A stretch of DNA of 64,000 nucleotides from Escherichia phage vB_EcoS_VAH1: sequence record MK373792.1, one strand, 5' to 3'. How positions within the stretch are numbered: position 1 is the first letter of the stretch; every line of letters starts with the position of its first letter. The notes under the pieces were generated by a model. That model had not been told where the DNA came from and did not search any database. It saw only the letters and a program-made list of their open reading frames with translations. Position numbers and translations under genes: made by a program. Below, piece after piece: positions 24,920-38,757 of this stretch.

Positions 24920-25285
24920 AATATTATTTCTTCAACCACAACAAAGATAAGCCCAGCATACTAAAGCCGCTAACTAATCCGATACATTTTTCTTCTATAG
25001 TAAAAGTATCTAGATTAAATGCTGTTATAGCTACGGGCATACACCATAATGCCATAAAAACTTGAGCTATCTTATGTTTCATTTTGCTTTCCTTCTCTTC
25101 ACTTTATAAAATATATTATACAGATAATAAAGCAGAATAGCAAATGAATTTTTAATAAATTTACTTATTGTGTAGGCCACCTGGAGGCTACCAACCCCAC
25201 GGCTGACAAAGACGTTTGCGAGACCTCTCTTAAATGCCAGAATAAACCCGCCGATCTATCGGAACCTACATAATAAGTAAACTTT

Positions 25286-25415
25286 ATAGTGTCATTCTAG
25301 ACAGGACTCGAACCTGCTATCACTTGTGCGGACTTACGAGAACCATTCTTTCACTCGAATCGAACGAGCTTCTGCCCTCGCCAAGCTGGTTTCCCCATCA
25401 ACCACGCTAGAATGT
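25286..25415 (-). other. ~125-nt tRNA-like element with two T-loop-like motifs
   Basis: Terminal 7-bp pairing ATTCTAG/CTAGAAT; T-arm AGCAGG-TTCGAGT-CCTGT; second TTCGATT motif; D-like stem TGGT/ACCA. Confidence 0.3.
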
Positions 25416-25535
25416 TTGATTGTTTTCAGTGCAAGAGTCCGAGTCTTGGACACGACCGCTTCGCAAGTACATAGGCAGCTTATCATGAGTCAGCACTTCC
25501 GAATTGCTAGCTCCGTGTTCTGCACTGAAATTTTA

Positions 25536-25883
25536 TTAGTTTAACCGTAAAGTACTATCTACTTCACCATTAATTGTTCGGCATTCCTCTGGAATTGCTG
25601 GTGTGGCCTTGTATTCCCACCACTCAGCACCATCATATTCCCCACGTTCTAGCCAAGTTCCATCGGCAAACCATACATTACCATAAAGTAATTGTCCACC
25701 ATATCCAGAGTCATATTTAAAGTCTAGGTTATTAAGAAAATCCTCAATATCTTCTTCTGTGTAACCTAAAGGCAATACCCAAACTTTTTTATCTCCATAA
25801 TACCCGAATTCTATTTTAATACATTTAACTTCAGAATTAGTATTTTTTAAGGCAAGTAACAGCTCTTCTTTGGCATTACGCAT
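25536..25883 (-). CDS. hypothetical protein
   Basis: 115-aa ORF. Confidence 0.4.
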   Translation of the reverse strand: MRNAKEELLLALKNTNSEVKCIKIEFGYYGDKKVWVLPLGYTEEDIEDFLNNLDFKYDSGYGGQLLYGNVWFADGTWLERGEYDGAEWWEYKATPAIPEECRTINGEVDSTLRLN

Positions 25884-29398: not shown

Positions 29399-29476
29399 TG
29401 GTGGCTCCCCGAGGATTCGAACCTACGTACCTTCCAGTTATGAGCTGGGTGCTCATACCATATGAGCTTGAGAACC
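29399..29476 (-). tRNA. tRNA-Met type (anticodon CAT); third CAT tRNA, could be the Ile2 (lysidine) species
   Basis: D-arm GCTC...GAGC, arm CCCAG-CTCATAA-CTGG, T-arm GTAGG-TTCGAAT-CCTCG. Confidence 0.55.
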
Positions 29477-30367: not shown

Positions 30368-31360
30368 GTGTCAAAAATGACAGAAGAAGTAGCTAAGAGT
30401 CCTGAGACCGTCGCTAGCGTTGCAGCAGAACTGCACCGTCACGAGGAATCAGATAAGAAAAAGTGGGAGAAGGTCAGAGCCTACGAAGAAAAACATCGTG
30501 AACACGATGATGAAGAAGATGACGATGAGCATTGTCATAAATATGGAAAACATAAAATGCAAGAACCAGTAAACGTATTTACTAGTGGCTTCCCTGGCCT
30601 ACTTGGTGGTTACCCAGCAAACGCAAGTGCTTTCGGTGGCGAAGGTATGGGACTATTCGGAGCTATCCTAATCGGTGCTCTATTAACAGGCGGGTTCGGT
30701 GGTTTCGGTGGATTCGGTGGACGTGGTGTAGTTGGTGATGGTACCGCAGTTGATGCAGTACTTCAGAACCAAGATACCGCTAGTATTCTAGCAGCTATTA
30801 ACACTACTCGTACAGAAGCTAACCAGGGTACTGGAGCTGTTTTAAGCGCAGTTAACAATGGTTTTAGCCAGACATCCCAAAACCAGAGCCGTGATACTCA
30901 GTCTGTACTAACTACGATCTATGGTACAGGTGCTAATCTGTCTAATCAGATCTGCCAGGAAACTCGCAACGTTATTCAGGGTCAGTTCGATCTTTCTCGC
31001 CAGATTGATCAATCTTTCGCAGCTAACCAGATAGCTCGTGCACAAGATAAGTTTGATTCTGCACAGATCGCTTTCCAGCAGACTTTACAAACTAATAACC
31101 AGTTTGCCGCTGTTCAGGCTCAGATGTGTGCTAACCAGAACTCTCTGGAACGTCAGATCGCTGAATGTTGCTGTGAACTTCAGACTGCGATCGCTGGTGT
31201 AACTACTGCGCGTATTCAGGATGAGTTAGATGCATGTCGCCTACGTGAAGCAATCGCTGCGGGTAACGGTGCTAACGGTCAGGTAATTAATCAAATCGCT
31301 GTAAGTCTTGGTGCTATCACTCAGACTCTGGCTGGTCTGCAGGCTAAACTGCCGGCTTAA
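30368..31360 (+). CDS. acidic/His-rich N-domain + glycine-zipper TM segment + Gln/Asn/Ala-rich helical C-domain protein; function unknown
   Basis: DDEEDDDEH; GLFGAILIGALLTGGFGGFGGFGG; Q/N/T-rich tail with CCC cluster; codon usage unlike neighbours. Confidence 0.55.
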   Translation: MSKMTEEVAKSPETVASVAAELHRHEESDKKKWEKVRAYEEKHREHDDEEDDDEHCHKYGKHKMQEPVNVFTSGFPGLLGGYPANASAFGGEGMGLFGAILIGALLTGGFGGFGGFGGRGVVGDGTAVDAVLQNQDTASILAAINTTRTEANQGTGAVLSAVNNGFSQTSQNQSRDTQSVLTTIYGTGANLSNQICQETRNVIQGQFDLSRQIDQSFAANQIARAQDKFDSAQIAFQQTLQTNNQFAAVQAQMCANQNSLERQIAECCCELQTAIAGVTTARIQDELDACRLREAIAAGNGANGQVINQIAVSLGAITQTLAGLQAKLPA

Positions 31361-31381
31361 TATTAAGGGGAGGAGCCCATT

Positions 31382-31798
31382 ATGAGTAAATATGGTTTTG
31401 TAAATAACGGACTTAATCAAAGTATGGGCTCCCAGCAGCCCATTCCGGGTCTGGATAACCCCTACTTACAACAATTGCAACAGCGTTTAGCAGAAGCGCA
31501 ACAGATGCAGCAACAACTCCAGCAAAACCCTGGAAGTGTGAGTCCTATGCAAATGATGCAGCAAATGAGCGGGCAGTCGCAAATGCCTCAACAAATGCAG
31601 CAACAGGTGCCGCAGCAGCAAGCTCAGCAGCAAACCCAACAACCGCAGGTTTCTGCGGAAGGACAGGCAGTACTAGCCCTTTTCGAAGACTTCGCAAAGA
31701 CAGAGGATGGTAAGCAGCTTGTATCACTTATGGGTAAGTTTAATAGCTTCTGCCAAAGCCAGGTTGCAAAAGCTCAAAATAGTGGTAATAACTCCTAA
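31382..31798 (+). CDS. Gln/Met-rich low-complexity (prion-like) protein
   Basis: QQLQQRLAEAQQMQQQLQQNP...MQMMQQMSGQSQMPQQMQQQVPQQQAQQQTQQ; GGAGG RBS. Confidence 0.5.
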   Translation: MSKYGFVNNGLNQSMGSQQPIPGLDNPYLQQLQQRLAEAQQMQQQLQQNPGSVSPMQMMQQMSGQSQMPQQMQQQVPQQQAQQQTQQPQVSAEGQAVLALFEDFAKTEDGKQLVSLMGKFNSFCQSQVAKAQNSGNNS

Positions 31799-31807
31799 GG
31801 AGGAATT

Positions 31808-32002
31808 ATGTGTTGCAGAAAATCTGTTTCGTGCTGCCCAATGCCTGTAGCACGTTGTTGCTCTCCAGCAATGTTTACGCAAATACCGGCGTTCAATCCG
31901 TTTGCCTTTAAGCCTACTCTTATCCTGCCCCCTAGAGTAGATTTTCAGTCAAGATTGGCCTCCCGTATGGGTGGTTGCTGTAATAAGAGTATATGGTTCT
32001 GA
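31808..32002 (+). CDS. small Cys-rich protein (CC pairs)
   Basis: MCCRKSVSCCPMPVARCCSP...GGCCNK; AGGAGG RBS. Confidence 0.35.
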   Translation: MCCRKSVSCCPMPVARCCSPAMFTQIPAFNPFAFKPTLILPPRVDFQSRLASRMGGCCNKSIWF

Positions 32003-32018
32003 AGAACCAAACAATAAA

Positions 32019-32053
32019 GCCCCTAAGTCTTTCGACTAGGGGCTTTTCTTTTA
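32019..32053 (+). terminator. rho-independent terminator closing the plus-strand island
   Basis: GCCCCTAAGTC...GACTAGGGGC hairpin followed by TTTTCTTTT. Confidence 0.6.
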
Positions 32054-32060
32054 TCTTAAA

Positions 32061-32097
32061 TACAGAAAAGCCCTGCGCTCTCCAGGAAACGCAGGGC
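32061..32097 (-). terminator. rho-independent terminator for the SPFH gene (convergent)
   Basis: GCCCTGCG...CGCAGGGC 8-bp stem with T-run on the minus strand. Confidence 0.6.
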
Positions 32098-32122
32098 TTA
32101 TTTCAGATGTTACATGCGGGTA

Positions 32123-33070
32123 TTATTTATTACGCATATCCATAATCATTTGGCCATCATAGCCAGTGCCAACCACAGTCTGCGGTACACCACCTTGGTA
32201 TTTCTGAGCACGAATCATTTCAACTTCCAGTTGCTTCCAGCGAATCATCTCAGGAGTAATGGTACGTTGCAACGCGGCGTTAGCTTCAGCTTCTTTCTTA
32301 GCTGCGTACAGTTTGGCATCTGCGTCACGCTCATTGGCAATAGCTTGGTTATTACGAGCTTCGCGATCTGCTTCTGCTTGTTTAACCTTCTGCTGTGCTT
32401 CTTGTTCAACACGAGCCAGTTCAGCTTTCGCAGCATTAACTTGCTCTTCACGAACTTTGGTATTCTGTACCTGTTCCATGATTACCGGTGGCAAAGTAAT
32501 ATCCTGAAGGAATACCTGCTTAACTGTATAACCATATGGGCGTGCATACTCTTCAACTTCCTGTTGAATTGCAGTTTGCAATTGAGCCTGAATTTTAGCA
32601 TCAAACAAATCTTGTGCTTTAGGTACAGACTTACCAAACTCACGAATAGTAGACAGTAATTTTTCAGTTACATATTTATCTAGTGCTTGATCCTGGGTGC
32701 CTGCGTTAATACGGTTAATCGGTGCCTTAGAACCATCAAATTGTAACATAACAGTCAGGTCAACAGTGGATTTAAACTTATCTTGGCTAGGAACCTGAAG
32801 TTTATCTAATTTTACAGCAATATCTTTTGTACTAAAAGTATCGAAAGATGCAAATGGGTTTACAAGATGGAAACCAGGTAATACTGGGTTAGGATCTACT
32901 TTACCTAGAAATGTTTGGGTTTTAACCGTACCATCAGAAACAATAGTATATGAATTAAAAGCTAGGATTAAACCTGCTAAACCAACTACAGCACCAATAC
33001 CCCAACGTTTAATAGTGCGAATTACTTTTTGCTCAGAAGTCAGTTCTTTCATATTTTTAGTATTAAACAT
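32123..33070 (-). CDS. SPFH/Band-7 (prohibitin/stomatin/HflKC-like) membrane protein
   Basis: N-terminal TM (WGIGAVVGLAGLILAF), SPFH-like core, long Ala/Glu/Gln coiled-coil tail. Confidence 0.7.
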   Translation of the reverse strand: MFNTKNMKELTSEQKVIRTIKRWGIGAVVGLAGLILAFNSYTIVSDGTVKTQTFLGKVDPNPVLPGFHLVNPFASFDTFSTKDIAVKLDKLQVPSQDKFKSTVDLTVMLQFDGSKAPINRINAGTQDQALDKYVTEKLLSTIREFGKSVPKAQDLFDAKIQAQLQTAIQQEVEEYARPYGYTVKQVFLQDITLPPVIMEQVQNTKVREEQVNAAKAELARVEQEAQQKVKQAEADREARNNQAIANERDADAKLYAAKKEAEANAALQRTITPEMIRWKQLEVEMIRAQKYQGGVPQTVVGTGYDGQMIMDMRNK

Positions 33071-33104
33071 ATATTTCCTTTGTTTTAGTTACAGTTAATA
33101 AAAT

Positions 33105-33179
33105 TGGCCGAGGTGACAGGATTCGAACCTGCATAAAGGAATTTAGAAGACTCCTGCCTCTCCCTTAGACTACACCCCG
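33105..33179 (-). tRNA. tRNA-Arg (anticodon TCT)
   Basis: Acceptor CGGGGTG/CACCTCG, arm GGAGT-CTTCTAA-ATTCC, T-arm GCAGG-TTCGAAT-CCTGT. Confidence 0.55.
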
Positions 33180-33669
33180 TTTAAGTATTTTTAAGAACTC
33201 TCGTAAAAACTCTTAAAAATACAGACGATACCGGGAGAGTCATAAGTCTCACTCATTAAGTATTTCAAGACAAAATACAGTAACGTCTATTATTTTCCAG
33301 TTTAAGTCAGGGTGACTTAGTGGTTATGTCCTGCGGTATATTGAGGACTCGGTTAGGCTTTGGGGTCATGACTTCCCGCCTTTTGCTGCTACTCAACAGG
33401 AGTTATCGCGAATTACCTGTGCTATTGTGCACCATTAGTGACATCTCTCATGTCAGCATTTCCCACTTTGTGGATAGCTTGAAAAACTACTCCGATATGG
33501 AGAAAGAACTTCACTATCCTAGAATACCTTCTAAAGTTCTTCTTTAGCCTGGACATAGTTAAATCGTAATAAAACTATTCAGCAGACTGGTTGGTTAGTC
33601 TGGAACCAACTACCGCGTGGTTTAGGCAGTGCGCAACTAACCTCGGAAGCTTTTACGTTAAAAGCATCA

Positions 33670-33745
33670 GTTATCCAGTTCTTACCGACCGTAGGATTCG
33701 AACCTACATCTTCCACCAGTTACGGCTTGATAATACCAATTATAC
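33670..33745 (-). tRNA. tRNA-like element, identity unresolved
   Basis: T-arm GTAGG-TTCGAAT-CCTAC; acceptor GCCGTCC/GGTCGGT with one mismatch; no clean anticodon arm; no CCA. Confidence 0.3.
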
Positions 33746-34029
33746 TAGGACGGCAGTGTTACTACATAAGTGATTTCCACACCCCACTATCAGTAAATTA
33801 GAGAAGAGTTTAGGGGAGAGGTTTCAGACGCCTCATTTTACACGTTCTAGCCACTAACCGGGATTGCCGCCCCCTGTGTACTAGTTTTACAACTAACCCA
33901 CCGACTCTATTCAACGAATCTTAGTGCTCGACGCATCTTACATTAAGACAAGTTCAGCGTAATCGGCTCGCTGTTCCCTAATTTATGAATATATTATACA
34001 GAATTTAAAGGCATTTAGCAAATAAATTT

Positions 34030-34473
34030 TTAATTAAATTCGCCAGCAATCTGAGCAGCAGTACCACCATCATAACGCCCAGGAAATTCTTCCTTAATCG
34101 CTTTCATCAGCATACCTTTTGTAATTCCAGGGTTTAGCTTAACTAATTCTGCAAAGTATTTACGAATCTCAGTATCAGATAACTGAGGAGGCAGATACTC
34201 CTGCAACCACTTATTTAGAATGTATTCATACTGAGCGGACTGCAAGCTATAACTATCAAGATCTTGACCATGAAGTTTAGCTTTCATCTGGTTAATGCTT
34301 TTTAGTTGAGCTTTGAGATAAGACACAAATTGTTCAGAAGTGATGAAATCTTTATCAATACGCTGAAGATCCCCGATTATGGTCTGATAGCTTTTAGCGA
34401 CTTCTTTATCAGAACCATTAAACTTAGAATCCTGCAAAGCTCTACGCAAAACATCTAAAATATTCTCTTCCAT
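34030..34473 (-). CDS. GatB/YqeY-domain protein
   Basis: LRRALQDSKFNG...ILNKWLQEYLPPQLSDTEIRKYFAELV...GITKGMLMKAIKEEFPGRYDG follows YqeY pattern. Confidence 0.55.
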   Translation of the reverse strand: MEENILDVLRRALQDSKFNGSDKEVAKSYQTIIGDLQRIDKDFITSEQFVSYLKAQLKSINQMKAKLHGQDLDSYSLQSAQYEYILNKWLQEYLPPQLSDTEIRKYFAELVKLNPGITKGMLMKAIKEEFPGRYDGGTAAQIAGEFN

Positions 34474-34711
34474 TATTTCATTCCTAACGCTTGGTTAAAA
34501 GATTGTTCCGTCATAACTGCTGAGACTTTGGCGAAATCAAACTTTTTAGGGTTCGTAGTGATCTCAGCAACGTTAGAAGTTTTAACAGTTTTCGTAGTAC
34601 GAATACCGCGAGTGTTAACACCAATAATTACAACTGATTTCATATTTCGCTTCCTCTCATTAATTTATGGAAGTATTATACGGAAATTTAAGTATTTAAG
34701 CAAGTAAATTT

Positions 34712-35179
34712 TTAAGTTTTAGTGACAACAGGTTTATAAAACGTATGTCCCTTAATCTTAGTTGTTTTCTTAAACTTCTTTGTCCAGTAAGGTTTATCTT
34801 TACCACTATGGAAGTATAGTGCTCCATATGTAGGATCTTGTGGTAAATCAACGTAGTATATCACTCTAGCTAAATTCTTAGCGGTTTGCCAAGCCTCATC
34901 AGTTTTATCAACTTTTGGTCTCTTAGATACCCAAGAGAACTGGTTAGACTGATATACTACTTTACAGTAGGAATCTGGGAATTTACCGGAGTTTACACGG
35001 TTTTTAGTAACGTGTGCAATCGCCGTCATTCCCTTTATGCCCTCACCACGACTTTCGAAATAGATATTTTTAGCAATGCAATCTATTTCTTTTGCATCGT
35101 GCGATGCCTGACTACTAAAGCTGAAGGTAAGGGCAGCTACTAAAAGCAAAGCTGCCTTCATTCTTTTTACTCCTGCCAA
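34712..35179 (-). CDS. secreted cell-wall hydrolase (SleB/Hydrolase_2-like)
   Basis: Signal peptide; IAKNIYFESRGEG...AIAHVTKNRVNSGKFPDSYCKVVYQSNQFSW. Confidence 0.6.
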   Translation of the reverse strand: MAGVKRMKAALLLVAALTFSFSSQASHDAKEIDCIAKNIYFESRGEGIKGMTAIAHVTKNRVNSGKFPDSYCKVVYQSNQFSWVSKRPKVDKTDEAWQTAKNLARVIYYVDLPQDPTYGALYFHSGKDKPYWTKKFKKTTKIKGHTFYKPVVTKT

Positions 35180-35484
35180 TCATATTCAACACGATTGGGA
35201 TTTTCTTTATACCCTAAGTCAAGCAAATCATTACGCATATTTTGCTTAGCTACTGGGTTCGAGGTTACTAGTACCACTTTCTTTGGTCTCTGCCCAAATT
35301 CTAAGAGTAAGCGAAGAATTTGATAACCTTCCATACCATCTACAGCCAAGTCATTATCCATATAAACGAAATGGCCTGTGGTATCAGTTTTATTCAGAAA
35401 CTCTACAGCGGCTTCTGGGGTTCGAATGATAATGTCCATTCCGTGAAGATTACGCACATCATCAATCAAAATATGAAAAGTCAT
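35167..35484 (-). CDS. hypothetical protein with receiver (CheY-like) fold features
   Basis: ILIDDV, YMDNDL...GMEGYQILRLL, VVLVTS pattern; weak. Confidence 0.3.
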   Translation of the reverse strand: MTFHILIDDVRNLHGMDIIIRTPEAAVEFLNKTDTTGHFVYMDNDLAVDGMEGYQILRLLLEFGQRPKKVVLVTSNPVAKQNMRNDLLDLGYKENPNRVEYDWQE

Positions 35485-35926
35485 AATAGCCTCGTTTCAT
35501 CAATTTAAAAATATATTATACAGATAACTTAGTAAATTAGCAAATACATTTTTAAATTGTGAAACTAGTAAACCGATAAACAGCCTAGAGGCGCCACAGG
35601 CCATATCTTACGAGCCATGTACCTTTGATCTAGGGTTTGAATCATCAACGAATACTTTGCATCTTTTAGCTTTAGAAGTTTAGAAGTTTGAGTTCTTTAA
35701 ACTTTTCAGCTTTCATACTTAAATGTTGATCTTTGAAGTTGTGTCGGTAATATCAACGACGCTTTGTTTTTACGTGTCAGATTAAGTGTCTGATGTAATA
35801 AACATAATCTCCAATAGATTATACTTTATAGTATGGTCAGCGGTCTTATTTAACCTCGTATTTCAACCGCTGCTGCGAGGTAAGATGCTTGGGCTTTCGT
35901 CTACCGATTTACTAGCTTTTAAATTA

Positions 35927-36565
35927 TTACTCTACTTCAATGAAGGTAGAGGCGTTAGACTCGGACAGAACAAAGTCAACATTTGTTGCAAAGTCCTGGT
36001 ATTCCTCGTCATGCTGCTTAATCAGCTTTTCCAGTTCCAGCGGATCAATCAAGAATGGAGTATTCTTGAGTTCCAGCAGGTTGAGCTGCATTTTAACTTC
36101 ATCTTCGGAAGTTTTCTTATCGCGGGTAGCCATGCTATCCTGCAAACGCTCATATTTAGCATCAAACTGTGCTTTCTGCGTATTAAACTTAACCGTAGCG
36201 GCATGGAACTGCTTACGCATGTTAGCCAGCAGTTGGGCTTTAAGTTCCATAGAACGCTTAGCTTCAATTGCTTCCGCAACAGTCATCTTACGAGAGCCAA
36301 TCTCAACGATTGTTTCAGCATTGCTTTTAATCAGAGCAGCTTTGATACGATCACGCTGGGACATCATATCCAGGAGAGATTGGAAATCTGCCTTAATACG
36401 AGCGGACAGATCGTCTACTTCGATTGCAGCGCCAACTACAACCTTATTTTTATCCTTACCTTCACCAACAGCGATCAGAAGCTGTTGTTCAGTAGCTTTA
36501 CGGATTTTAGCTTCCAGAGATTTGATAGTTGCCAGAGCGCGAGTTTTAGAAATACGAGTAGTCAT
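35927..36565 (-). CDS. hypothetical Lys/Glu-rich helical protein
   Basis: 212-aa ORF; antisense plus-strand ORFs here are low-complexity. Confidence 0.45.
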   Translation of the reverse strand: MTTRISKTRALATIKSLEAKIRKATEQQLLIAVGEGKDKNKVVVGAAIEVDDLSARIKADFQSLLDMMSQRDRIKAALIKSNAETIVEIGSRKMTVAEAIEAKRSMELKAQLLANMRKQFHAATVKFNTQKAQFDAKYERLQDSMATRDKKTSEDEVKMQLNLLELKNTPFLIDPLELEKLIKQHDEEYQDFATNVDFVLSESNASTFIEVE

Positions 36566-36618
36566 TATTTGCTTCCTTATATGAAGTTTGAGATTTGAAT
36601 TTGTTTAAACTTGGTTTA

Positions 36619-36801
36619 TTACAGACCAATTGCCAGCAGAGTGCGCAGAACAGTATCGTTACTGTTATCAATTTTAGGATTAGCACGATTTAGCAGATCA
36701 AAGATTTTCTGGACACCTGATTGACGTTCAGCCATACGACGGATACCCAGATTACGAGTAGCTTTCTTACCATTTTTACGAACATTTTTAGATACTGGCA
36801 T
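36619..36801 (-). CDS. small basic protein
   Basis: 60-aa ORF. Confidence 0.3.
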   Translation of the reverse strand: MPVSKNVRKNGKKATRNLGIRRMAERQSGVQKIFDLLNRANPKIDNSNDTVLRTLLAIGL

Positions 36802-36871
36802 ATTTGTTTTCCTTTTATTGTTTTCTCAAATTTATGAATATATTATACAGAATTTTGGGGCCGGAAGCAAA

Positions 36872-37573
36872 TCAAATTTTCATTTTTTCGATCATAGCTG
36901 CAACACAATAGCTTTCAACTAAGGCATCAAATGCAGGATCATGCTTAACCGGATAGATCCCATAACGAATAGTGTCCATCTTCTCCATTTTAGCTATTGC
37001 CCAGCTAATACCTTCGGTCTCTAGAGCCTTATAACTGTATCCAGCTTGCATCCAGAGATTACGAAGAGATCGAACATTACCCAAATTCCAGAATTTCCAC
37101 GGAACTACCTCTTCATTGGTTCCAGCATGGAACGTGTTTGCAGAGTAGATAGTCATATCAAACTCTGGACCATTGCCATAATACAAAGCATTTTCGCCTA
37201 GAGCCAACTCCATAATATTTTGAGCCATAGAGAAGGCAGCATAGTTAGAGCCGAGCTTATTAGTACAGTGATGTTTACCGTCTTGAAAAGCAATCAGCTT
37301 TGGATTGCATTCCCTCATAGCTTCCATAATATGTAGAGCTGATGGACTATTTTTAGCTTGATCCATCCAGAATGCTAGAGTAGATGCCGTAACTTTAGCT
37401 CCAGAATTAAGCTGATCTTGTACATCCAAAATAACAAACACTAGACCAGGATCTTTATCAATTCCGTGCATAGCCACAAAAGCGAAAGAAGGCATTACGA
37501 TATGAGTAGTACCACAATCTCCTGGAGTTCCTAAAGATTCAATATCTAGCATACCAAATGGTTTTACTTTCAT
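36872..37573 (-). CDS. DEDDh-family 3'-5' exonuclease (DnaQ/DexA-like)
   Basis: MLDIESLG (D-x-E) near N-terminus and YPVKHDPAFDAL (H-x4-D) near C-terminus. Confidence 0.55.
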   Translation of the reverse strand: MKVKPFGMLDIESLGTPGDCGTTHIVMPSFAFVAMHGIDKDPGLVFVILDVQDQLNSGAKVTASTLAFWMDQAKNSPSALHIMEAMRECNPKLIAFQDGKHHCTNKLGSNYAAFSMAQNIMELALGENALYYGNGPEFDMTIYSANTFHAGTNEEVVPWKFWNLGNVRSLRNLWMQAGYSYKALETEGISWAIAKMEKMDTIRYGIYPVKHDPAFDALVESYCVAAMIEKMKI

Positions 37574-37601
37574 AACTTATCCTTTATTGCGTAGAAAACT
37601 A

Positions 37602-37838
37602 TTAAAGAGCTGTCTCTTTAATAGACTCCCACTTCTTGGGGTCTTTAAAACCAGGAAGCATATCCTCACTGACATCCCAGTTCTCTTCCATAGAGAAGTC
37701 AGGCCATTCATTCCAGCTACCTTCCAATTCTTCATAACAGGTATCCATTACCTCATGACTAGAAAGTCGTGTATAATCTCTAGCGGACTTATGAGTGCTA
37801 GCACGGTTAAAATCATTCTTTGCTACAAAATTACGCAT
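37602..37838 (-). CDS. small acidic Trp-rich protein
   Basis: 78-aa ORF. Confidence 0.35.
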   Translation of the reverse strand: MRNFVAKNDFNRASTHKSARDYTRLSSHEVMDTCYEELEGSWNEWPDFSMEENWDVSEDMLPGFKDPKKWESIKETAL

Positions 37839-37879
37839 AGTTTCTCCAAACTAAGAGGGGCTTTCGCCCCTCTTATCTA

Positions 37880-38395
37880 TTACTTCGCTTTACATTTACG
37901 AGCTGGTTTAGCAGATTTATGAGCAGAATCGCCCGTGAATTTAATCCCTACACCGTAGCACAGAGCACGAACGTTATCTTTGCTATACTCTACACCGAAG
38001 ATATTTGGCTTAACAGAACCAAACTGTCCACGAGCATCACGCAGTACATCTGCCGTTGGTTTACGCTTCTGGTTAACTGCTTTCTCATAATCTTTCATGG
38101 CCATGCCATTACGAGAGAACAATTCAGCTCCAGCATTGAAACTCAGTGTTACTGGAACAGATTTGTGACCATAACCCTGTACATAGGTCACAAGGCGGGC
38201 TACAGAACGAGTAGCATTCTTAGCCTTCGGCTTTTGACGAATCGGAGCCGGACGATTCAGTGCCTGTGCAGCTTGAGCATCAGTAGGATGCTTGCGCAGG
38301 TGGCGTTCCAGACGAGCTTTGCGGTTAGCCTCAGTCTGCGGGAAAGTTTTAACTGTAGTAGCTGCTTGAGTTTTTGCGTTTTTCTGCTTAGCCAT
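37880..38395 (-). CDS. basic protein, possible nucleic-acid binding
   Basis: Lys/Arg/Ala-rich N-half. Confidence 0.4.
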   Translation of the reverse strand: MAKQKNAKTQAATTVKTFPQTEANRKARLERHLRKHPTDAQAAQALNRPAPIRQKPKAKNATRSVARLVTYVQGYGHKSVPVTLSFNAGAELFSRNGMAMKDYEKAVNQKRKPTADVLRDARGQFGSVKPNIFGVEYSKDNVRALCYGVGIKFTGDSAHKSAKPARKCKAK

Positions 38396-38478
38396 TATTT
38401 GTTTTCCTTTTTGTTTATCAATTTATGAAGTATATTATACGAGAATTTGAAGCGTTTAGCAAATGAATTTTTTAAAAA

Positions 38479-38757
38479 TTATCTGCCGACCATCTTAGCT
38501 TGTTCTTCATCAGAAACGTATTGATATGCACCCTTGTTATACGCCGGAGCAGTGCACATCTTCTTACGCTCAATCTCTTCTTGAGCTTTTCTTTCGCGTT
38601 CAGCTAATTCTTCGTCCAGATAAACTAAACGTTGTTCTGGAGGGGGTGGAAGACGTGTTTCTGGCTCACCAATATTAGCCTTTCTTATTTGACGGGGTGA
38701 TTGTGCACGTTTTCTCAACGGTTTAAATCCTAATGAATTTGAGTTATAAATTCGCAT
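38479..38757 (-). CDS. hypothetical protein
   Basis: 92-aa ORF. Confidence 0.35.
   Translation of the reverse strand: MRIYNSNSLGFKPLRKRAQSPRQIRKANIGEPETRLPPPPEQRLVYLDEELAERERKAQEEIERKKMCTAPAYNKGAYQYVSDEEQAKMVGR

What the first reader, a model, noticed from the sequence alone, without database searches (positions are those of the whole stretch)
25286..25415. ~125-nt tRNA-like element with terminal 7-bp pairing and two T-loop-like motifs
ATTCTAG at ~25407-25413 pairs with CTAGAAT next to a canonical T-arm (AGCAGG-TTCGAGT-CCTGT) ~120 nt away; a second TTCGATT motif and a TGGT/ACCA D-like stem lie between. It is too long for a normal tRNA and lacks CCA. It may be a tRNA with an insertion, a fused pair, or a tRNA-derived regulatory RNA.
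Basis: seen in the sequence. Interest (0 to 1): 0.5.

Follow-up and report, generated by a model that had tools for sequence, protein, structure and literature searches.

The report
tRNA-shaped phage RNA, anticodon replaced
This is the phage T5 gene "RNA2", a tRNA-shaped RNA whose anticodon loop is replaced by a conserved 55-nt three-armed module; the same design recurs in many unrelated large phages, and nobody yet knows what it does.

Summary
On the minus strand, 25414..25290 is the ortholog (97.5% identical) of the GenBank feature rna2/RNA2 of phage T5, annotated "tRNA-like stable RNA with unknown functions". So the locus is already known, but it is unexplained.

It has a complete cloverleaf body: acceptor stem, D-arm, anticodon-type stem, 4-nt variable loop and T-arm. 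A 55-nt module sits where the 7-nt anticodon loop should be. The module is a three-way junction. One arm ends in a second T-loop (UUCGAUU), a mini-hairpin presents U-G-G, and the junction strands (GAA, CGUAA) are conserved.

Covariation across about 60 distinct sequences supports every helix (93% of cells paired, against 33-47% for slid controls). The family occurs in T5-like phages, in T4-like Acinetobacter phages and in uncultured contigs up to 570 kb. It lies mostly inside same-strand tRNA arrays, with one copy per locus. It is absent from E. coli genomes and plasmids, and Rfam has no family for it.

It is not two fused tRNAs. It is probably not an intron-bearing tRNA either, because the residual loop lacks U33 and a purine at 37. 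Unlike 20 of 21 neighbouring tRNA genes, it encodes no CCA.

Best reading: a non-decoding RNA in which the tRNA body gives processing and stability and the module is the effector. The binding partner is unknown.

The parts
25290..25414 (-). Whole element: ortholog of T5 rna2/RNA2 (125 nt, CAUUCUAG...CUAGAAUGACA)
   Evidence: 97.5% identity to NC_005859 32959-33083, annotated misc_RNA 'tRNA-like stable RNA with unknown functions'. Also annotated in AY692264, AJ604531 and NC_042564.
25407..25413 (-). Acceptor stem, 5' strand (AUUCUAG). C at 25414 can add an 8th pair with G25293.
   Evidence: Pairs with 25294-25300. All 7 pairs change on both sides across the family, 95% of cells paired.
25387..25404 (-). 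D-arm (UGGU / UGAUGGGGAA / ACCA)
   Evidence: All 4 pairs change on both sides, 92% paired. The D-loop contains GG in 53 of 54 members.
25382..25386 (-). Anticodon-type stem, 5' strand (GCUUG)
   Evidence: Pairs with 25322-25326 (CAAGU). All 5 pairs change on both sides, 98% paired. RNAalifold finds it independently.
25327..25381 (-). 55-nt module that replaces the anticodon loop (GCGA GGGC AGAA [Pb] GAA [Pc] CGUAA GUCC GCA)
   Evidence: This is the conserved part of the family while the tRNA body drifts. Module length is 51-61 nt across members. In IMG/VR it is always embedded in a tRNA body, 41 of 41 hits.
25374..25377 (-). Pa, 5' strand (GGGC); pairs with GUCC at 25330-25333
   Evidence: G-C, G-C and G.U are near-invariant. 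The 4th pair switches between C-G and U-A (UA 20, CG 10). The competing helix RYGG/CCRY shows no covariation.
25353..25369 (-). Pb: 5-bp hairpin with a T-loop (GCUCG UUCGAUU CGAGU)
   Evidence: 4 of 5 pairs change on both sides. The T-loop is present even when the search pattern leaves it unspecified.
25339..25349 (-). Pc: mini-hairpin AGAA [UGG] UUCU presenting U-G-G
   Evidence: Found by a mutual-information scan. Compensatory stem variants include GUA/UAC, UUA/UAA, CA/UG and CGUA/UACG. The loop-proximal pairs covary, UA 19 / AU 14 / GU 3 / CG 2; the outer pairs are weak.
25334..25338 (-). Conserved junction strand CGUAA (with GAA at 25350-25352 on the other side of Pc)
   Evidence: Conserved in BLAST-found relatives from Klebsiella, Pectobacterium and Acinetobacter phages before any pattern was imposed. 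Later invariance is partly by construction, because it was part of the search pattern.
25301..25317 (-). T-arm (GCAGG UUCGAGU CCUGU)
   Evidence: 3 of 5 pairs change on both sides, the G53-C61-type pairs are invariant, 95% paired.
25294..25300 (-). Acceptor stem, 3' strand (CUAGAAU)
   Evidence: See the 5' strand.
25290..25293 (-). 3' tail G-ACA (no encoded CCA)
   Evidence: 20 of 21 tRNA genes in the window are followed by CCA. Tails in T5-like copies vary (GACA, GACU, GACC, GAUA, GCCA).

Best explanation
The element is the T5 RNA2 gene, one member of a phage-restricted family of tRNA-shaped non-coding RNAs that cannot decode. The complete tRNA body serves as a natural 'tRNA scaffold'. It lets the RNA be cut out of the polycistronic tRNA-array transcript by the host's tRNA-processing enzymes and makes it as stable as a tRNA. 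The working part is the 55-nt three-way-junction module that sits where the anticodon loop should be. I infer that this module folds compactly, probably through a contact between its T-loop and its UGG loop like the one at a tRNA elbow, and binds a partner that is conserved across many hosts or phages. My preferred guess for the role is a decoy or adaptor for a tRNA-binding factor in the phage-host conflict over tRNAs. What is shown: identity with RNA2, the fold, the lack of an anticodon loop and of CCA, the tRNA-array context, and the restriction to phages. What is inferred: the processing route, the compact fold, and the binding function.
For: Identity: 97.5% to annotated T5 rna2, with the same neighbours (T5.067 homolog = phrog_3972 upstream; RNAIV and promoter P13a downstream). 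Fold: 93.1% of cells paired against 33-47% for slid partners, 25 of 34 pairs change on both sides, covariation score 0.83 against 0.18 or less. This is repeated on a model-made alignment and by a mutual-information scan in which 22 of the top 23 pairs are the proposed helices. Scaffold role: the body stems vary at every position and no conserved identity nucleotides were seen, whereas the junction strands and loops of the module are conserved. All 41 module hits in IMG/VR lie inside a tRNA body. A median of 7 tRNAs lies within 4 kb, all on the same strand. No promoter or terminator was predicted immediately around it. Non-decoding: no 7-nt anticodon loop exists. Accessory and phage-specific: no match in 5,426 E. 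coli genomes or 72,556 plasmids. The only convincing hit among 185,579 species genomes is on a phage-like contig. The viable variant T5Mos lacks 30661-38625, a deletion that spans RNA2 by NC_005859 coordinates (PMC11464382). Engineering precedent: RNAs inserted in place of the anticodon loop of a tRNA are precisely processed and stable in E. coli (PMC3753655).
Against: No expression, end-mapping or binding data were available here. 'Stable RNA' rests only on the GenBank note. No partner is identified, and no protein gene co-occurs with the element across lineages. 15 of 117 loci have no tRNA within 4 kb, so array context is not obligatory. The T-loop to UGG-loop contact is an inference without covariation, because both loops are invariant. 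Part of the module's apparent invariance (inner T-loop, CGUAA, outer T-loop) was imposed by my search patterns, although reduce that concern. Post-transcriptional CCA addition and charging cannot be excluded.
Confidence: 0.55

Rival explanations
1. The module is a small-molecule aptamer of the riboswitch type, a three-way junction with two interacting loops. Displayed on an abundant tRNA scaffold, it would act as an RNA sponge or sensor, for example for a nucleotide second messenger of anti-phage immunity.
For: The conservation pattern matches junction-type aptamers: variable stems, conserved junction strands and conserved loops. One lineage tolerates a peripheral extra arm. The element is phage-restricted and dispensable in the laboratory. 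From general knowledge, T-loops often form ligand or base-intercalation sites in riboswitches.
Against: No Rfam riboswitch family matches even at E<=10. The Pc arm is only 2-4 bp. No ligand is suggested by the gene context. The idea is purely architectural.
Confidence: 0.12
2. It is a chargeable tRNA-like RNA that acts in translation or ribosome rescue without decoding, in the manner of tmRNA. CCA would be added after transcription, and the module would take the place of codon recognition.
For: The L-shape determinants are intact (D-loop GG, T-loop, 7-bp acceptor stem). A few members do encode N-CCA (EH5 GCCA, Sugarland UCCA, L162 ACCA). In Acinetobacter phage W16 a small RF-1-domain (ArfB-like) gene starts 27 nt downstream.
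Against: CCA is absent in most members, while neighbouring tRNA genes encode it. The acceptor stem and discriminator vary freely, so no common synthetase identity is apparent; the window copy has U3-A70, not G3.U70. ARAGORN finds no tmRNA and there is no tag reading frame. The RF-1 neighbour is seen in only one lineage.
Confidence: 0.1
3. It is a tRNA gene interrupted by a small intron. The module is removed to give a normal decoding tRNA.
For: The insertion sits exactly in the anticodon loop. If the three helices were excised, the residual loop would be 7 nt in 45 of 67 members. Rfam's tRNA model scores some members as a tRNA with an insertion.
Against: Among the 7-nt residual loops only 2 of 45 have U33 and 2 of 45 have a purine at 37; the typical loop is NCGA|GCA. 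At 55 nt the module is far too small for a group I intron, and no intron family matches. The structure next to the stem is a 4x3 internal loop, not a bulge-helix-bulge. By established knowledge, bacteria lack the tRNA splicing endonuclease. The module is the most conserved part, the opposite of what is expected for a spacer. T5 annotators give the RNA as 125 nt.
Confidence: 0.08
4. It is a decayed or fused tRNA relic with no function of its own, kept at most as an RNase P / RNase E processing signal within the array.
For: tRNA scanners do not call it. It lacks CCA. It lies in a region that T5 can lose.
Against: Relics do not keep about 30 unpaired nucleotides conserved, nor compensatory changes in seven helices, across T5-like, T4-like and uncultured large phages. 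There is exactly one copy per locus in 91 of 94 sources.
Confidence: 0.05

Closest known systems
Phage T5 rna2 / RNA2 (GenBank misc_RNA, locus_tag T5s06; also annotated in BF23 and Salmonella phage 5)
   Same: Same gene: 97.5% identity over 125 nt, same position between the T5.067 homolog and RNAIV/promoter P13a.
   Different: Nothing structural. The annotation gives only 'tRNA-like stable RNA with unknown functions'. It describes neither the three-way-junction module nor the family outside T5-like phages.
Canonical tRNA (Rfam RF00005)
   Same: Acceptor, D, anticodon-type and T stems, D-loop GG, T-loop consensus and a short variable loop. It sits in a tRNA array on the same strand.
   Different: No anticodon loop (a 55-nt module instead), no encoded CCA, C8 instead of U8 in T5-like copies, and not called by ARAGORN or the Rfam model in this window.
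Engineered 'tRNA scaffold' for recombinant RNA expression (Ponchon and Dardel; PMC3753655)
   Same: Identical design: acceptor, D and T arms are kept and a structured RNA is inserted on the anticodon stem, which gives precise processing and nuclease resistance in E. coli.
   Different: That is a laboratory construct. This would be a natural counterpart with one particular conserved insert.
tmRNA (RF00023)
   Same: A tRNA-like frame that carries a large functional insert and does not decode through an anticodon.
   Different: tmRNA lacks the D stem and anticodon stem, has G3.U70 and CCA, pseudoknots and a tag reading frame, and is cellular. None of these is present here.
Bacterial Y RNA-like YrlA (RF02553)
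   Same: A non-coding RNA with a tRNA-like domain, also found in some phages.
   Different: In YrlA the 5' and 3' ends form the Ro-binding stem and the tRNA-like part is internal (from memory of Chen et al. 2014). Here the ends form the acceptor stem. There is no RF02553 match on the element.
Phage T4 stable RNAs rnaC / rnaD (species 1 and 2)
   Same: Orphan stable RNAs at the end of a phage tRNA cluster. rnaC also ends in a T-arm, a 7-nt strand and UACA.
   Different: The family model finds only the T-arm (18.7 bits, against 50-95 bits for members), with no three-way junction.
Junction-type riboswitch aptamers (e.g. the purine riboswitch three-way junction)
   Same: Three helices, conserved junction strands, two conserved loops on neighbouring arms, variable stems.
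   Different: No sequence or model similarity, very short arms, carried on a tRNA body rather than in a 5' UTR. This is a resemblance of architecture only.

Membership tests
T5 RNA2 (annotated misc_RNA rna2) | High sequence identity to the annotated 125-nt feature | tested here: met
   97.5% over the query including all 125 nt of NC_005859 32959-33083.
T5 RNA2 (annotated misc_RNA rna2) | Same position in the T5-type tRNA region | tested here: met
   Upstream ORF = T5.067 family (phrog_3972, E 1e-42). RNAIV homolog and a P13a-type promoter (TTGCTA-17-TATAAT at 25143..25115) lie downstream.
T5 RNA2 (annotated misc_RNA rna2) | Accumulates as a stable RNA in infected cells | not testable with these tools
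   Only the GenBank note says so. No transcript data were available.
Canonical tRNA (RF00005) | Cloverleaf with acceptor, D, anticodon and T stems | tested here: met
   All four stems are supported by two-sided changes.
Canonical tRNA (RF00005) | 7-nt anticodon loop with U33 and a purine at 37 | tested here: not met
   The loop is replaced by 51-61 nt. Even the residual flanks have U33 in only 2 of 45 and R37 in 2 of 45.
Canonical tRNA (RF00005) | Reaches the Rfam gathering score or is called by ARAGORN | tested here: not met
   No call at this locus, even at E<=10. Some relatives do pass (L132 50.6 bits, L115 47.9 bits).
Canonical tRNA (RF00005) | 3' CCA and aminoacylation | tested here: inconclusive
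   CCA is not encoded (G-ACA), whereas 20 of 21 neighbours encode it. Addition after transcription and charging cannot be tested here.
Intron-containing tRNA (group I or bulge-helix-bulge type) | Intron with a group I core, or a bulge-helix-bulge splice motif | tested here: not met
   55 nt, no intron family match. A 4x3 internal loop lies next to the stem rather than two 3-nt bulges on opposite strands.
Intron-containing tRNA (group I or bulge-helix-bulge type) | Excision leaves a functional anticodon loop | tested here: not met
   The residual loops are typically NCGA|GCA.
tmRNA | tRNA-like domain with G3.U70 and CCA, plus a tag ORF and pseudoknots | tested here: not met
   ARAGORN finds no tmRNA and Rfam gives no hit. 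Positions 3:70 are U-A. There is no ORF with any support.
YrlA / Y RNA-like (RF02553) | Match to the family model; termini form the Ro-binding stem | tested here: not met
   No RF02553 hit on the element. The termini form a tRNA acceptor stem.
T4 rnaC / rnaD | Homology to the T4 stable RNAs | tested here: not met
   Family model R1 gives 18.7 bits (T-arm only) on rnaC and 16.4 bits across the rnaD/tRNA-Arg boundary, both at background level.
Phage tRNA-scaffolded three-way-junction RNA (the family defined here, model R1) | tRNA body plus the Pa / Pb(T-loop) / Pc(UGG) module on the anticodon stem | tested here: met
   92 bits with R1, with the caveat that a window-identical sequence was in the training set. 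Every helix is present.

The most novel reading that the evidence does not exclude
RNA2 and its relatives are a natural 'tRNA-scaffolded aptamer'. This would be a compact riboswitch-like three-way junction that phages express at tRNA-like abundance to soak up or sense a small molecule or a nucleic-acid end, for example an immune second-messenger nucleotide or the CCA end of tRNAs (its exposed U-G-G is complementary to CCA). That would make it an RNA-only counter-defence factor.
Probability: 0.1. Interest if true: 0.9.

Novelty: already known. Interest (0 to 1): 0.5.

Why it matters
The locus itself is not new: T5 RNA2 has been in GenBank for about twenty years as an orphan. Three things appear to be undescribed in Rfam 15 and in the literature I could search.

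- The 'extra' sequence is a conserved three-way junction that precisely replaces the anticodon loop.
- The same design recurs in T4-like Acinetobacter phages and in uncultured phages with contigs up to 570 kb, each with a completely different tRNA body.
- In these scans it is confined to virulent phages.

Phage tRNA regions have recently been shown to hold counter-defence functions (T5 tRNA-Lys against PARIS, PMC11464382). A conserved non-decoding tRNA look-alike in the same arrays is therefore an obvious candidate for another such function. It would also be a natural precedent for the engineered tRNA scaffold. On a practical level, many genome records annotate spurious small ORFs across the element, or nothing at all.

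Tried and rejected
- **Minimum-free-energy fold of the single sequence.** The z-score is only -1.23, and it pairs GCUUG with UAAGU. Covariation instead supports GCUUG/CAAGU.
- **RNAalifold's UGG/CCG helix inside the module.** No covariation above shuffles. Rejected in favour of Pa.
- **My first Pc helix (AUGG with NCGU).** Only one-sided changes. Replaced by the UGG-loop mini-hairpin after the mutual-information scan.
- **Exact 15-mer scan of IMG/VR.** It returned mostly chance hits inside coding sequence.
- **Co-occurring protein genes within 4 kb.** None is shared across lineages.
- **T4 rnaC/rnaD as relatives.** Not detected.
- **Coding alternative.** Only 20-72-aa ORFs without family support, and the automatic GenBank calls are on the opposite strand.
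- **Pairing of the post-hairpin AGAAUG with the 5' acceptor strand in T5 (a possible alternative fold).** Seen by eye in a few members only. It was not pursued because acceptor sequences are not conserved.
- **Resemblances recalled from memory** to the RNase P J11/12 region, the T-box antiterminator (UGGN pairing with NCCA), the 23S GTPase-associated centre (CGUAAUA) and loop E (GUA/GAA). These are leads only. None could be tested, and the CGG variants of the loop argue against simple CCA pairing.
- **Literature searches.** I found no functional study of RNA2.

Full report
**What the window is.** The window carries a minus-strand array of 21 tRNA genes between about 19.8 and 33.8 kb (ARAGORN; Rfam). 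It is 95-99% identical to T5-like phages such as phiLLS and T5 itself. The finding lies inside this array.

**Checking the observation.** Read on the minus strand, the element is:

CAUUCUAG-CG-UGGU UGAUGGGGAA ACCA-GCUUG-[55 nt]-CAAGU-GAUA-GCAGG UUCGAGU CCUGU-CUAGAAU-G-ACA

Neither ARAGORN nor the Rfam tRNA model calls it, and a permissive Rfam scan (E<=10) of 25100-25600 gives only two chance-level hits elsewhere. The motif combination occurs once in the window and never in 100 shuffles.

**Identity.** BLAST against 50,697 phage records finds the element in 481 of them. In NC_005859 and AY692264 (T5) the match lies under the feature rna2. In AJ604531 (Salmonella phage 5) and NC_042564 (BF23) it lies under RNA2, described as 'tRNA-like (stable) RNA with unknown functions', 125 nt. 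By offset, the window copy is 25414..25290. The neighbours agree with T5. Upstream is the T5.067 homolog (phrog_3972). Downstream are the RNAIV homolog and a P13a-type promoter at 25143..25115. So the locus is already annotated, but without a structure model beyond 'tRNA-like' and without a function.

**The wider family.** Aligning the window copy with relatives from Salmonella phage EH5, Pectobacterium phage DU_PP_V, Klebsiella phage Sugarland and Acinetobacter phage W16 showed two things. The acceptor, D, anticodon-type and T stems are replaced wholesale but stay complementary. The middle segment is conserved in sequence.

A gapped pattern built from that middle segment found the element in several collections:
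- IMG/VR contigs of 14-364 kb;
- metagenome contigs up to 570 kb;
- one 'bacterium' contig whose neighbours are phage tail-fiber and internal-virion proteins.

Cultured carriers outside the T5 genus include Acinetobacter T4-like phages Acj9 and 133, Providencia PSTCR5/PR1, Proteus Stubb/PM135 and Serratia Slocum. The element is unannotated in all of them. There is no match in 5,426 complete E. coli genomes or 72,556 plasmids.

A covariance model of the conserved part (R1) scores members at 50-95 bits and everything else at 31 bits or less. It finds exactly one copy per locus in 91 of 94 sources, rejects the three chance pattern matches, and finds one copy in the window (25301-25386, 92 bits).

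**Structure.** I parsed about 68 distinct sequences by fixed anchors and registered the result as an alignment (A3). The full structure has 93.1% of cells paired, against 33-47% when partners are slid by 1-3 columns. 25 of 34 pairs change on both sides, and the covariation score is 0.83 against 0.18 or less. The acceptor and anticodon-type stems were chosen by complementarity, so they lean towards the model. The inner hairpin, the outer T-arm and Pa were placed by fixed offsets only, and they covary as well. A model-made alignment gives the same picture. An APC-corrected mutual-information scan returns the proposed helices as 22 of its top 23 pairs.

The module, 25381..25327 in the window, reads as follows:
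- J1 GCGA
- Pa GGGC (pairs with GUCC; the last pair switches between C-G and U-A)
- AGAA
- Pb GCUCG-UUCGAUU-CGAGU (a T-arm look-alike)
- GAA
- Pc AGAA-[UGG]-UUCU
- CGUAA
- GUCC (Pa, 3' strand)
- GCA

Pc came from the mutual-information scan and replaced my first guess. Its two loop-proximal pairs covary (UA 19, AU 14, GU 3, CG 2) and its outer pairs are weak. RNAalifold's competing UGG/CCG helix shows no covariation. A search pattern that leaves Pb and Pa unspecified still recovers only members with an inner T-loop. It also revealed a lineage with an extra ~45-nt arm at the junction.

Caveat: the inner T-loop, CGUAA and the outer T-loop were in my first pattern, so their invariance is partly by construction. 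GGG, UGG, GAA and GCA were not in it.

**What it is not.**
- It is not two fused tRNAs. The second T-loop hairpin has no arms of its own.
- It is probably not an intron-bearing tRNA. Removing the three helices would leave 7 nt in 45 of 67 members, but only 2 of those 45 have U33 and 2 of 45 have a purine at 37. At 55 nt the module is far too small for a group I intron, no intron family matches, and the module is the most conserved part.
- It is not tmRNA, YrlA or a relative of T4 rnaC/rnaD.
- It is not coding.

The body is tRNA-like by an independent test. Rfam's tRNA model scores L132 at 50.6 bits and L115 at 47.9 bits across about 120 nt.

**Context.** Within 4 kb of the element there is a median of 7 tRNA genes, all on the same strand. 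15 of 117 loci have none. No protein family recurs across lineages. In the window, 20 of 21 tRNA genes are followed by CCA, but RNA2 is followed by G-ACA. Across the family an encoded CCA is the exception. The viable T5 variant T5Mos lacks 30661-38625, which spans RNA2 by NC_005859 coordinates, so the RNA is dispensable on laboratory E. coli (PMC11464382).

**Interpretation.** Three points are shown by the analyses here:
- the RNA has a tRNA-type fold;
- it lacks an anticodon loop and so cannot decode in the usual way;
- its conserved, selected part is the three-way junction.

The rest is inferred. The tRNA body probably serves the purpose it serves in the engineered tRNA scaffold, namely precise excision from the array transcript and nuclease resistance (PMC3753655). 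The module is probably a compact fold, possibly closed by a T-loop to GG-loop contact like the one at a tRNA elbow, that binds a conserved partner. I put about 0.55 on this general model. Within it, I favour a macromolecular partner, that is, a decoy or adaptor for a tRNA-binding factor. That fits the counter-defence role now known for T5 tRNAs. A small-molecule aptamer (about 0.12), a chargeable tmRNA-like role (about 0.10), an intron (about 0.08) and a functionless relic (about 0.05) remain as rivals.

**Verdict.** The locus is already known as T5 RNA2. Its function is still open. The family-wide architecture and distribution described here appear to be undescribed in Rfam 15 and in the papers I could search.

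Noticed in passing
window 25169-25271 (minus strand): Homolog of T5 rnaIV ('stable RNA with unknown functions'), immediately 3' of RNA2. Its ends form a long imperfect helix (UUAUUAUGUAGG.../...CCUACACAAUAA). The folding z-score is only -0.95, and the weak MIR6135 hit at 25155-25287 is that helix.
   Followed up: partly
window 25416-25536 (minus strand): Unannotated 121-nt spacer between the T5.067 homolog and RNA2. Its ends pair over about 11 bp (UUUCAGUGCAG / UGCACUGAAA) and it contains a GUCC-AAGACUC-GGAC hairpin. The z-score of -1.63 is not significant, and conservation outside T5-like phages was not examined.
   Followed up: partly
window 29402-29476 and 33683-33754 (minus strand): Two tRNA genes that Rfam finds (38.2 and 35.5 bits) but ARAGORN misses. 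The second is the only tRNA gene in the window not followed by CCA.
   Followed up: no
window, 3' flanks of the tRNA genes: 20 of 21 tRNA genes are followed by CCA, and 11 of them by the same hexamer CCAAAT. This may be a shared processing or spacer signal in the array.
   Followed up: no
L009 508-738 (Acinetobacter phage vB_AbaSt_W16): A 76-aa RF-1-domain (peptide chain release factor / ArfB-like) gene, phrog_20323, starts about 27 nt downstream of the RNA2-like element. There is no tRNA within 4 kb in that phage. This neighbour is seen in this lineage only.
   Followed up: partly
L165 1409-1547 (phage T4 rnaC): T4 rnaC (annotated 'species 1 RNA') ends in a T-arm, a 7-nt strand and UACA, much like RNA2's G-ACA end, and it contains CGAGG...CCGUAAGCC. 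The family model does not recognise it beyond the T-arm.
   Followed up: partly
L166 2491-2721 (Acj9p148); L167 163-255 (PP429240): Protein-coding genes are annotated across the RNA element in several records (Acj9p148; small opposite-strand ORFs with no PHROG in T5-like records). These are probably annotation artefacts.
   Followed up: partly
L168 7926-8057 and L169 11946-12077: A family variant from 112-kb and 251-kb contigs has an additional ~45-nt arm inserted between the T-loop hairpin and the UGG hairpin, turning the three-way junction into a four-way junction.
   Followed up: partly
L003, L005, L006 (T5, Salmonella phage 5, BF23), just 3' of RNA2: The segment immediately downstream of RNA2 differs between close relatives: RNAIV directly in T5, a 56-aa ORF in phage 5, and an extra tRNA-Gly in BF23. 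This suggests cassette-like reshuffling at the boundaries of the RNA genes.
   Followed up: no
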